A stretch of DNA of 22,956 nucleotides from IMG/VR virus record IMGVR_UViG_3300045988_018328. One strand, 5' to 3'. Origin of the DNA: a virus (lineage: Duplodnaviria > Heunggongvirae > Uroviricota > Caudoviricetes). Shown piece by piece: positions 1 through 645 of the stretch (position 1 is its first letter; the number at the start of each line of letters is the position of its first letter). Under the pieces are notes generated by a model. That model had not been told where the DNA came from and did not search any database. It was given only the letters and a program-made list of their open reading frames with translations. The translations under genes and the position numbers were made by a program.

Positions 1-645
1 TACAGTATCATCTGTTATGCCGTCTCCTTTTGCACCAAAATCACGAACACTAATGGTGTCTCTCATCTTATCCTGGAACGTTCGGTACACAGCCCCAGAA
101 CCATACTGAATAAACCAACCAAAACCACCAACAACCCCGGCGATTGCAGCATCGACATAATTACGCATTGAGCGATTATTTACAGCATCCTGCTCAAGTG
201 ATGGATCTGCAAGGTTAGAAATTCTGTTTTGCTTTGCATCGTAATATTTTGCAAGCAGAGAGGGCTTCATCAATGCACGTCTGAACCACCCAAAACATTG
301 CTGGATCAGCATCGTCAGGTAGTCAAAGGCATCTTCATGCACTTCGGGGAAAAATTTTCCCTGATTGCGAAGGTCTGTCTCCTGCACTACATCAAGCACA
401 CGATCTATCGTAATTCGCCATCCAGTAGCAAGCGGAGACAGAAGAACCACAGAACCGCCACTATAAGTGCCCGCCCCAGTTACCGTATAACCGGTATCCA
501 GGACCAATTCTGTTACGTTCCCGTTCAGGTCAGACACCTGAACAACCAGGTCTGATTTTCTGAAAATTCGAAAAGTATACGGAAACGATGTCGTAACGCC
601 GTTACCGGTGTATTCGTTGTGGTCAACTTCGGTTGAGACCGTCAT
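1..645 (-). CDS. Tailspike / tail fibre protein, N-terminal ~215 aa only (gene continues beyond window start)
   Basis: Not in the ORF track because it has no stop in the window. ATG at 645..643 with GGAG 9 nt upstream. My translation reads MTVSTEVDHNEYTGNGVTTSFPYTFRIF... and continues without stops to ...ISVRDFGAKGDGITDDT, the typical onset of a pectate-lyase-like right-handed beta-helix found in phage depolymerases/tailspikes. Confidence 0.7.
   Translation of the reverse strand, partial: MTVSTEVDHNEYTGNGVTTSFPYTFRIFRKSDLVVQVSDLNGNVTELVLDTGYTVTGAGTYSGGSVVLLSPLATGWRITIDRVLDVVQETDLRNQGKFFPEVHEDAFDYLTMLIQQCFGWFRRALMKPSLLAKYYDAKQNRISNLADPSLEQDAVNNRSMRNYVDAAIAGVVGGFGWFIQYGSGAVYRTFQDKMRDTISVRDFGAKGDGITDDTV

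What the first reader, a model, noticed from the sequence alone, without database searches (positions are those of the whole stretch)
1..645. Tailspike with pectate-lyase-like beta-helix onset: probable polysaccharide depolymerase fixing host range
The N-terminal about 200 aa appear to form a particle-binding module, followed at the window edge by the GAKGDGxTDDT motif that begins the enzymatic beta-helix in capsule- or O-antigen-degrading tailspikes. Separation from the structural operon by the moron island (as in P22, where immI precedes gene 9) makes this a likely exchangeable receptor-binding cassette.
Basis: partly seen in the sequence, partly recalled or inferred. Interest (0 to 1): 0.4.

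Follow-up and report, generated by a model that had tools for sequence, protein, structure and literature searches.

The report
Modular prophage tailspike, probable capsule depolymerase
The window starts inside the gene for a phage tailspike whose front end plugs into the virus particle and whose swappable back end is a sugar-cutting beta-helix; this design is textbook, but genome comparisons suggest this version targets one particular E. coli capsule rather than the O-antigen.

Summary
Window 1-645 (minus strand) holds codons 1-215 of a tailspike gene. The window is 99.9% identical to an epsilon15/phiV10-like (Uetakevirus) prophage in E. coli SCZE5, where the gene is 709 aa.

Residues 1-194 are the genus-typical virion anchor. 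It is 68% identical to phiV10 and homologous to Dpo31 D1/D2, which cryo-EM places at the virion base. From codon 195 the gene switches to a low-GC module that is 96-98% identical to the C-terminus of P22-type tailspikes.

The "moron island", however, is a conserved immI-like antirepressor module: LexA box, isrK, C4 RNA and Ant.

New here: the catalytic module does not track O-serogroup, since hosts are O5, O1 and O83. It does track one rare group-2 capsule locus with a WecB/WecC (ManNAcA) region 2. 21 of 37 carriers have that locus against 0.4 expected (p~3e-34).

The kind is well known. The predicted capsule specificity is an untested inference.

The parts
1..645 (-). 5' part (codons 1-215 of 709) of the tailspike / receptor-binding protein gene; the gene runs off the window at position 1
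   Evidence: Translation. 100% identical over window 1-1400 to SCZE5, where the gene is L001 6516-8645 and is annotated 'glycosyl hydrolase family 28-related protein'. PHROG tail families phrog_13893 and phrog_20231.
653..656 (-). Shine-Dalgarno GGAG, 7 nt upstream of the ATG at 645
   Evidence: Read directly from the sequence.
64..645 (-). Virion-anchor module (codons 1-194), conserved within epsilon15/phiV10-like podophages
   Evidence: 98.4% DNA identity to the APEC O1 prophage endosialidase gene from -299 up to nt 582 (codon 194), then none. 68% aa identity to phiV10 over residues 1-165. Heads more than 100 distinct 50%-identity clusters with different C-termini. GC 46.7%.
400..621 (-). 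N-terminal beta-sandwich domain (residues 9-82), equivalent to Dpo31 D1
   Evidence: The AF2 10-residue blocks spanning residues 11-80 have mean pLDDT 89-96. HMMER match to 28lx/8ck1. Foldseek match to 8ck1_B at 48% identity. D1 of Dpo31 is residues 8-87 and contacts the virion.
64..336 (-). Helical neck (residues 104-194), presumed trimeric coiled coil equivalent to Dpo31 D2
   Evidence: Helices 104-125, 159-171 and 183-194 in the model, with low monomer confidence. Dpo31 D2 is a three-helix coiled coil. The trimer itself was not tested.
1..63 (-). First 21 codons (195-215) of the exchangeable catalytic/receptor-binding module; the rest lies beyond the window edge
   Evidence: 98.7% DNA identity to a P22-type tailspike gene starting at nt 584, codon 195. 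Protein identity to P0004 and P0015 starts at I198. Module GC is 36.4% and GC3 is 25.4%.
4..36 (-). GAKGDGITDDT motif (residues 204-214), the N-terminal cap of the beta-helix
   Evidence: PF12708 profile positions 2-18. Aligns to the same motif in beta-1,3-glucanases, the Sf6 tailspike and CBA120 TSP3. The model has a strand at 208-212 followed by a capping helix at 214-223.
804..2109 (+).
   Evidence: Rfam isrK 77.9 bits and C4 77.7 bits. Pfam Bro-N E=2.3e-21. PHROG anti-repressor Ant. CTGTATAAATATACAG is one of 3 pattern matches against 0.34 expected. Same gene order in phiV10.

Best explanation
This is the receptor-binding tailspike of an epsilon15/phiV10-like temperate podophage integrated in E. 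coli. It is built from two modules joined at codon 194/195.

Residues 1-194 form a beta-sandwich plus a helical neck that attaches the presumed trimer to the tail. This attachment role is inferred from homology to Dpo31 and phiV10.

Residues 195-709 are a horizontally acquired, low-GC cassette. It comprises an N-cap (the GAKGDG motif), a right-handed parallel beta-helix of roughly 14 rungs, and a C-terminal beta-sandwich. The beta-helix carries a conserved stripe of residues on four consecutive rungs: H354/H357, Y379, E404/E406 and W425/D427/D428. I infer that these form the substrate groove and that the carboxylates catalyse endoglycosidic cleavage of a surface polysaccharide, letting the phage tunnel to the outer membrane.

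Which polysaccharide is inferred from genome association only. It is most likely the group-2 (kps) capsule whose region 2 encodes WecB/WecC, a ManNAcA-containing K antigen and possibly K7. It is probably not the O-antigen.

Because the anchor and the cassette recombine at the conserved junction, the cassette sets host range and moves between phage genera.

Confidence is about 0.9 for 'modular beta-helix tailspike', about 0.75 for 'enzymatically active depolymerase', and about 0.6 for 'specific for this capsule'.
For: Gene and context. The neighbours form a podovirus structural operon: portal, major head protein, T7-like tubular tail proteins and internal virion proteins. A lysis cassette and the prophage end lie beyond the gene.

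Anchor..

Junction. Both partner genes break within 2 nt of each other, at nt 582 and nt 584. GC drops from 46.7% to 36.4% at that point.

Conservation. D295, D395, E404, E406, D427 and D428 are invariant in 16 sequences at 30-97% identity. They sit on strands 403-406 and 424-427 of adjacent rungs.

Modularity. The C-module occurs behind P22-type, PF18668-type, Kagunavirus, Gamaleyavirus gp66, Vectrevirus and Aeromonas-phage N-termini. The anchor heads more than 100 different clusters.

Capsule association.
- The region 2 of the SCZE5 kps locus occurs in 56 of 5426 complete genomes, and 21 of the 37 module carriers have it (expected 0.38, OR 200, p=3e-34).
- Carriers with this locus are O5, O1 and O83.
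- Within O5, 4 of 5 K-locus-positive genomes carry the module, against 0 of 30 K-locus-negative genomes.
- All five genomes whose best-matching copy is annotated as a P22-type tailspike, and all five genomes holding two copies, are K-locus-positive. The second copy was confirmed to be P22-type in SCZE5.

Literature fit. The phiv142-3-type RBD was reported in several serogroups, with a capsule proposed as the shared receptor (PMC10408124). Mutants resistant to St11Ph5 (47%-identical module, O5ab host) keep an unchanged LPS profile.
Against: There is no biochemical or genetic test of activity or substrate.

16 of the 37 carriers lack this region 2 today. The three I inspected had an IS1-deleted region 2, a locus replaced by another type, and a different K type. 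These fit capsule switching after lysogeny but equally show the association is not absolute.

The genomes are not phylogenetically independent, so the p-value overstates the support.

The model is a monomer, so trimerisation and any inter-subunit active site are untested. The K7 naming is tentative. It rests on the ManNAcA pathway plus a kpsM/kpsT rearrangement that PMC13171606 lists for K7 among other types. No direct typing was found.
Confidence: 0.85

Rival explanations
1. It is an O-antigen-specific tailspike (O5 endoglycosidase), as is usual for Uetakevirus and Lederbergvirus receptor-binding proteins. Carriers with other O types would have switched O-antigen after lysogeny.
For: SCZE5, the window's near-identical host, has an O5 wzx/wzy cluster. 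The host of St11Ph5 (47% module) is O5ab. O5 genomes are enriched for the module: 4 of 35 against 33 of 5391, OR 21, p=8e-5. Most characterised RBPs of this genus cleave O-antigen (PMC10408124 and PMC11522302).
Against: Within O5 the module is found only in the genomes that also carry the kps region 2: 4 of 5, against 0 of 30. Copies at 99.5-100% identity sit in O1 and O83 hosts. The literature reports O1, O102 and O51 as well. St11Ph5-resistant mutants have unaltered LPS.
Confidence: 0.12
2. The link between module and K locus is clonal hitch-hiking: a few lineages inherited both. The true receptor would then be another, unidentified surface glycan such as colanic acid, ECA or LPS core.
For: Many carriers look like one lineage, with similar coordinates and shared protein accessions between B1 and TUM12368. 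16 carriers lack the locus. EC.W1-9 (96% module) spot-lysed isolates of many sequence types. Phi92 colanidase is among the fold neighbours. The two hosts whose wca region I read, SCZE5 and B1, both have intact colanic acid clusters.
Against: The association recurs in two unrelated prophage types (Uetake-type, and P22-type at a different chromosomal position), in hosts of three O types, and in genomes of 4.76 to 5.37 Mb. A ubiquitous receptor would not predict 200-fold enrichment in the 1% of genomes with one capsule type. The K locus also occurs in ST131 and O2:H1 strains, which could explain lysis across sequence types.
Confidence: 0.15
3. The beta-helix is a non-catalytic adhesin: a binding-only tail fibre with no depolymerase activity.
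Against: Six acidic residues are invariant down to 30% identity, clustered on adjacent rungs together with conserved His, Tyr and Trp. That pattern is typical of glycosidase grooves. Nearly all the tailspike neighbours are enzymes.
Confidence: 0.1

Closest known systems
phiV10 tail fibre (YP_512279) and the Uetakevirus RBP architecture; the nearly identical RBP of prophage phiv142-3 (MN187550)
   Same: Same anchor: 68% identity over residues 1-165 to phiV10. Same gene order: virion proteins, BRO-N gene, epsilon15p19-like gene, tail fibre, lysis region. The phiv142-3 gene is 96.5% identical in DNA over the window part and 99.8% identical in protein over the C-module.
   Different: phiV10's C-terminal domain is unrelated and O157-specific, and it is followed by an O-acetyltransferase conversion gene. 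Here a 98-aa membrane-protein ORF occupies that slot. The phiv142-3-type RBD has no assigned receptor.
P22-family (Lederbergvirus) tailspikes: P22 gp9, Sf6, HK620
   Same: Head-binding or anchor domain followed by a trimeric beta-helix endoglycosidase. Sf6 and HK620 are top Foldseek hits. The identical catalytic cassette (96-98%) is found fused to the P22 head-binding domain PF09008, directly downstream of mnt/arc.
   Different: This protein lacks PF09008 and uses the Uetakevirus anchor instead. Sequence identity to the solved beta-helices is only 10-14%. The predicted substrate is a capsule, not an O-antigen.
Dpo31 tailspike of marine podovirus Carin-1 (PDB 28lx, 28mg, 8ck1)
   Same: Homologous D1 beta-sandwich and D2 coiled-coil neck (E=1.7e-31; 48% identity in D1). 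An experimentally shown EPS depolymerase with D1 at the virion base.
   Different: Different host and substrate.
K1 endosialidase tailspike of the APEC O1 Uetake-like prophage; K5 lyase; Klebsiella/Acinetobacter capsule depolymerases
   Same: Capsule-specific phage depolymerases. The APEC O1 gene shares this anchor up to codon 194. K5 lyase and several capsule depolymerases are fold neighbours.
   Different: Endosialidase has a beta-propeller fold, not a beta-helix. The substrates differ. Capsule specificity is only inferred here.

Membership tests
Uetakevirus (epsilon15/phiV10-like) receptor-binding protein | N-terminal anchor homologous to the first ~165-205 aa of the phiV10/epsilon15 tail fibre | tested here: met
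   68% identity over residues 1-165 to phiV10 YP_512279. PHROG tail families matched from residue 1.
Uetakevirus (epsilon15/phiV10-like) receptor-binding protein | Genomic context: podovirus structural operon, BRO-N/epsilon15p19-like block, then the RBP, then the lysis genes | tested here: met
   compared with phiV10.
Uetakevirus (epsilon15/phiV10-like) receptor-binding protein | Physical attachment to the virion tail as a trimer | not testable with these tools
   Only inferred from Dpo31 cryo-EM and crystal data. The AF2 model is a monomer.
Pectate-lyase-like right-handed parallel beta-helix tailspike depolymerases (Pfam PF12708 clan) | PF12708 match above the gathering threshold | tested here: met
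   Full-length protein: 45.1 bits against a cutoff of 27. The window fragment alone scores only 17.7 bits.
Pectate-lyase-like right-handed parallel beta-helix tailspike depolymerases (Pfam PF12708 clan) | Right-handed parallel beta-helix fold | tested here: met
Pectate-lyase-like right-handed parallel beta-helix tailspike depolymerases (Pfam PF12708 clan) | Polysaccharide-cleaving activity with catalytic carboxylates (or lyase residues) in the groove | tested here: inconclusive
   Invariant D395, E404, E406, D427 and D428 on adjacent rungs. There is no alignment to a characterised active site and no assay.
Glycoside hydrolase family 28 (the PGAP name is 'GH28-related') | Match to the GH28 catalytic domain model (PF00295) and its signature motifs | tested here: not met
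   No PF00295 hit at E<=0.1; only the PF12708 N-cap region matched. It is not a GH28 member. The resemblance is at fold level.
P22-type tailspike (Lederbergvirus) | P22 head-binding domain PF09008 at the N-terminus | tested here: not met
   Absent from this protein. Present in the 663-aa relatives that share the C-module.
Endosialidase (GH58) tailspike | Endosialidase N-terminal extension and beta-propeller catalytic domain | tested here: not met
   PF12218 scores 18.9 bits, below its cutoff of 26.3. Similarity to the APEC O1 endosialidase ends at codon 194.
Capsule (K-antigen)-specific phage depolymerase | Host range and enzyme activity dependent on one capsule type | tested here: inconclusive
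   Strong genomic co-occurrence with one kps region 2: 21 of 37 against 0.38 expected. However, 16 carriers are discordant, there is no phylogenetic correction, and there is no experiment.

The most novel reading that the evidence does not exclude
This RBD family is a previously unrecognised depolymerase class specific for the ManNAcA-type (possibly K7) group-2 capsule of E. coli. It is shared by temperate Uetake- and Lederberg-viruses and, in diverged form, by lytic Kaguna-, Gamaleya- and Vectre-viruses. On this reading the discordant carriers, with IS-deleted, replaced or switched kps loci, record capsule loss or switching after infection by these phages. This would explain why the phiv142-3-type RBD defied O-serogroup assignment.
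Probability: 0.4. Interest if true: 0.45.

Novelty: new member of a known kind. Interest (0 to 1): 0.3.

Why it matters
The architecture itself is textbook: a conserved anchor plus an exchangeable beta-helix depolymerase. A nearly identical gene is already deposited (phiv142-3), so the finding as written is ordinary.

The added value is a concrete, testable receptor prediction for an RBD subtype that a 2023 survey could not assign to any O-serogroup. If the module really cuts one group-2 capsule found in ST648-like, ST131, O2:H1 and O5 strains, it would have three uses:
- a typing reagent for that capsule;
- a host-range cassette for engineered phages or tailocins;
- an anti-capsule enzyme.

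It would also show that prophage RBDs can be read as records of a lineage's past capsule type.

Tried and rejected
(1) O5 antigen as substrate. The idea came from SCZE5 being O5 and the St11Ph5 host being O5ab. It was rejected as the main explanation after the within-O5 control, where only K-locus-positive O5 genomes carry the module, and after finding O1 and O83 hosts.

(2) A shared IS1 deletion scar explaining all 16 discordant carriers. The exact scar of WP5-S18-ESBL-08 occurs in only one other genome, which is not a carrier. The discordant carriers are heterogeneous.

(3) A sequence-profile search of the C-module against PDB to transfer catalytic residues. Only the cap motif aligned.

(4) Direct K-type naming. 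Neither the main text nor the held supplements of PMC13171606 mention these genomes. K7 remains a guess.

(5) Repeating the E. coli search to list the second copy in SCZE5 only showed the best place again. The second copy was found through P0120 instead.

(6) The promoter scan found no convincing sigma-70 promoter for the tailspike in 646-840. How the gene is transcribed is unresolved.

(7) TUM12368's O type: my coordinate guess missed the locus and I did not pursue it.

Full report
**Observation**

Window 1-645 contains, on the minus strand, an ORF with ATG at 645. A GGAG lies 7 nt upstream, and 215 codons are open to the window edge, ending SVRDFGAKGDGITDDTV. On its own the fragment hits Pfam PF12708 (pectate-lyase-like) and the T7 tail-fibre N-terminal model only below threshold.

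The window matches the chromosomes of E. coli SCZE5 and ECJXMCRH7 in one piece at 99.9%, and at 100% over window 1-1400. The only difference I located is a 10-bp indel near 3858. I therefore read the rest of the gene from SCZE5 (L001 6516-8645). It encodes 709 aa and is annotated by PGAP as 'glycosyl hydrolase family 28-related protein'.

**Context**

The neighbours are a podovirus structural operon: portal, major head protein, T7-like tubular tail proteins and internal virion proteins. Beyond the tailspike lie a 98-aa ORF, two holins, a GH19 endolysin, a DUF2514 protein and the prophage end next to yfgI. The closest phages are Uetakeviruses: phiv142-3, vB_EcoP_ZX5, EC.W1-9 and phiV10.

**N-terminal module**

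- Residues 1-165 are 68% identical to the phiV10 tail fibre; nothing beyond that aligns.
- Residues 1-180 match the solved tailspike Dpo31 of podovirus Carin-1 (E=1.7e-31). Foldseek matches the in-virion chain 8ck1_B at 48% identity.
- In Dpo31, D1 is a beta-sandwich (residues 8-87), followed by a ~23-residue linker and a trimeric coiled-coil D2. Cryo-EM places D1 at the base of the virion (PMC13317679).
- My AlphaFold2 model has the same layout: a confident beta domain at 9-82, a disordered linker, then helices that are low-confidence in a monomer model.
- An exhaustive search shows this anchor at the head of well over 100 different 50%-identity clusters of 400-1170 aa, that is, joined to many different C-termini.

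**Junction**

- The APEC O1 prophage endosialidase gene shares nt -299 to 582 at 98.4%.
- A P22-type tailspike gene from a second, degraded prophage in SCZE5 shares nt 584 to 1646 at 98.7%.
- Both breakpoints fall at codon 194/195, which is window position 62-64, just upstream of ISVRDFGAKGDG.
- GC falls from 46.7% (GC3 44.8%) in the anchor to 36.4% (GC3 25.4%) in the cassette, against about 49% for the window as a whole.

**C-terminal module**

- The full-length protein passes PF12708 (45.1 bits).
- The model (mean pLDDT 82) shows short strands from residue 197 to 565, with most 10-residue blocks at mean pLDDT 90-98, followed by a beta-sandwich at about 590-700.
- Foldseek ranks the Sf6 tailspike first (E=4.8e-10).
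- By sequence, no solved enzyme aligns over the central rungs, and there is no GH28 domain hit. The protein is not a GH28 member.
- Across 16 relatives at 30-97% identity, D295, D395, E404, E406, D427 and D428 are invariant, as are Y379 and W425; H354 and H357 are nearly invariant.
- H354/H357, Y379, E404/E406 and W425/D427/D428 lie on the first strand of four consecutive rungs: 355-358, 379-382, 403-406 and 424-427. I read this as the substrate groove.
- The pattern of one carboxylate plus a DD pair one rung apart resembles GH28/GH87 and P22-type catalytic sites. That comparison is from my own knowledge and was not tested here.

**Exchangeability**

The same cassette at 96-98% identity is fused to the P22 head-binding domain in hundreds of E. 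coli proteins and to a PF18668 N-terminus. At 47-56% identity it occurs in a Kagunavirus tailspike (fBC-Eco01), Gamaleyavirus St11Ph5 gp66, Vectrevirus proteins and Aeromonas phages. This agrees with the published model of conserved anchors and horizontally transferred RBDs (PMC10408124).

**The 'island'**

The plus-strand block between the virion genes and the tailspike contains:
- a near-consensus LexA box at 804-819;
- a small ORF at 841-1098, related to the C-terminal part of Ant;
- isrK at 1181-1256 and a C4 antisense RNA at 1281-1366;
- a BRO-N Ant antirepressor at 1414-2109.

phiV10 has the same gene order. This is an immI-type control module rather than a set of morons. In the degraded P22-like prophage of SCZE5, the same cassette sits directly downstream of a gene with Arc/Mnt-family repressor domains.

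**Which polysaccharide?**

PMC10408124 noted that the phiv142-3-type RBP occurs at >=95% identity in O5, O1, O102 and O51 strains, and suggested a shared receptor such as a capsule. I tested this as follows.

- Only 37 of 5426 complete genomes carry the cassette.
- SCZE5 is O5, CUVET19-970 is O1 and B1 is O83.
- O5 is enriched among carriers (OR 21) but accounts for only 4 of them.
- SCZE5 has a group-2-type kps locus whose region 2 encodes WecB, WecC (the UDP-ManNAcA pathway), glycosyltransferases and a DUF6270 protein, lying between kpsM and kpsT.
- That region 2 occurs in 56 of 5426 genomes, and 21 of the 37 cassette carriers have it (expected 0.38, OR 200, p=3e-34).
- Within O5, 4 of 5 K-locus-positive genomes carry the cassette, against 0 of 30 K-locus-negative genomes.
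- All five genomes whose best-matching copy is annotated as a P22-type tailspike, and all five genomes with two copies, are K-locus-positive. The second copy was confirmed to be P22-type in SCZE5. This gives a partly independent replicate.
- The locus also occurs in an ST131 strain and an O2:H1 strain. That fits EC.W1-9 lysing several sequence types and fBC-Eco01 infecting an O2:H1 host.
- St11Ph5-resistant mutants keep an unchanged LPS profile.

Caveats:
- 16 carriers lack the locus. The three I inspected have an IS1-deleted region 2 with a frameshifted kpsE, a kpsM remnant beside a different locus, and a different region 2.
- The genomes are not independent.
- The K-type name (K7?) is a guess from the ManNAcA pathway and the kpsM/kpsT rearrangement reported for K7 among other types.

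**Verdict**

The observation and the interpretation are both sound, and the object is a well-known kind with near-identical deposited relatives. The only new element is the predicted capsule specificity, which is statistical and needs an experiment.

Noticed in passing
window 804-819 (+) and ORF 841-1098 (+): A near-consensus LexA/SOS box, CTGTATAAATATACAG, lies 22 nt upstream of an 85-aa ORF (phrog_450) that is homologous to the C-terminal part of the neighbouring Ant protein. This suggests an SOS-inducible small antirepressor.
   Followed up: partly
window 1181-1256 and 1281-1366 (+): Rfam isrK (77.9 bits) and C4 antisense RNA (77.7 bits) lie directly upstream of the BRO-N Ant gene (1414-2109). 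This is a P1/P7-immI-like or Gifsy-1 isrK-anrP-like arrangement inside a Uetakevirus-type prophage.
   Followed up: partly
window 19268-19344 (+): A tRNA-Arg (anticodon TCT) lies within the packaging/head gene region, on the strand opposite to the structural genes.
   Followed up: no
window ~3858 (between 3848 and 3870): A 10-bp deletion relative to SCZE5 frameshifts the first codons (MKKINLFFGIVLS...) of the 283-aa gene of unknown function (phrog_6118). In the window the ORF can only start at GTG 3848. This could be a real mutation or an assembly difference.
   Followed up: partly
L001 6140-6436 (-), just beyond window position 1: A 98-aa hydrophobic ORF, probably a membrane protein (phrog_1443, no Pfam match), sits immediately downstream of the tailspike. 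phiV10 carries its O-acetyltransferase conversion gene in this slot. A role in receptor modification or exclusion is possible.
   Followed up: no
L007 (SCZE5 chromosome 1570132-1587661): A second, degraded P22-like prophage lies about 150 kb away. Its tailspike has a P22 head-binding domain plus the same catalytic cassette, sits downstream of a gene with Arc/Mnt-family repressor domains, and is truncated after about residue 505. An IS1 transposase fragment abuts the gene end in a related contig (L008). At least five complete genomes carry two copies of the cassette.
   Followed up: partly
L011 27883-28580 (SCZE5 O-antigen cluster): An IS1 is inserted between galF and rfbB at the head of the O5 gene cluster. 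It might reduce O-antigen expression in this host.
   Followed up: no
L018, L019, L020 (kps loci of WP5-S18-ESBL-08, RS571, KN13-4): Cassette-carrying strains show three different states of the capsule locus: region 2 replaced by IS1 with kpsE frameshifted; a kpsM remnant cut by IS5 next to a group-3-like locus; and a different region 2 (HAD hydrolase plus acetyltransferase). This indicates frequent capsule loss or switching among these strains.
   Followed up: partly
L001 6516-8645 (tailspike gene): There is a sharp composition step at the module junction. The anchor has 46.7% GC (GC3 44.8%) and the cassette 36.4% GC (GC3 25.4%), which points to a low-GC donor for the cassette.
   Followed up: yes
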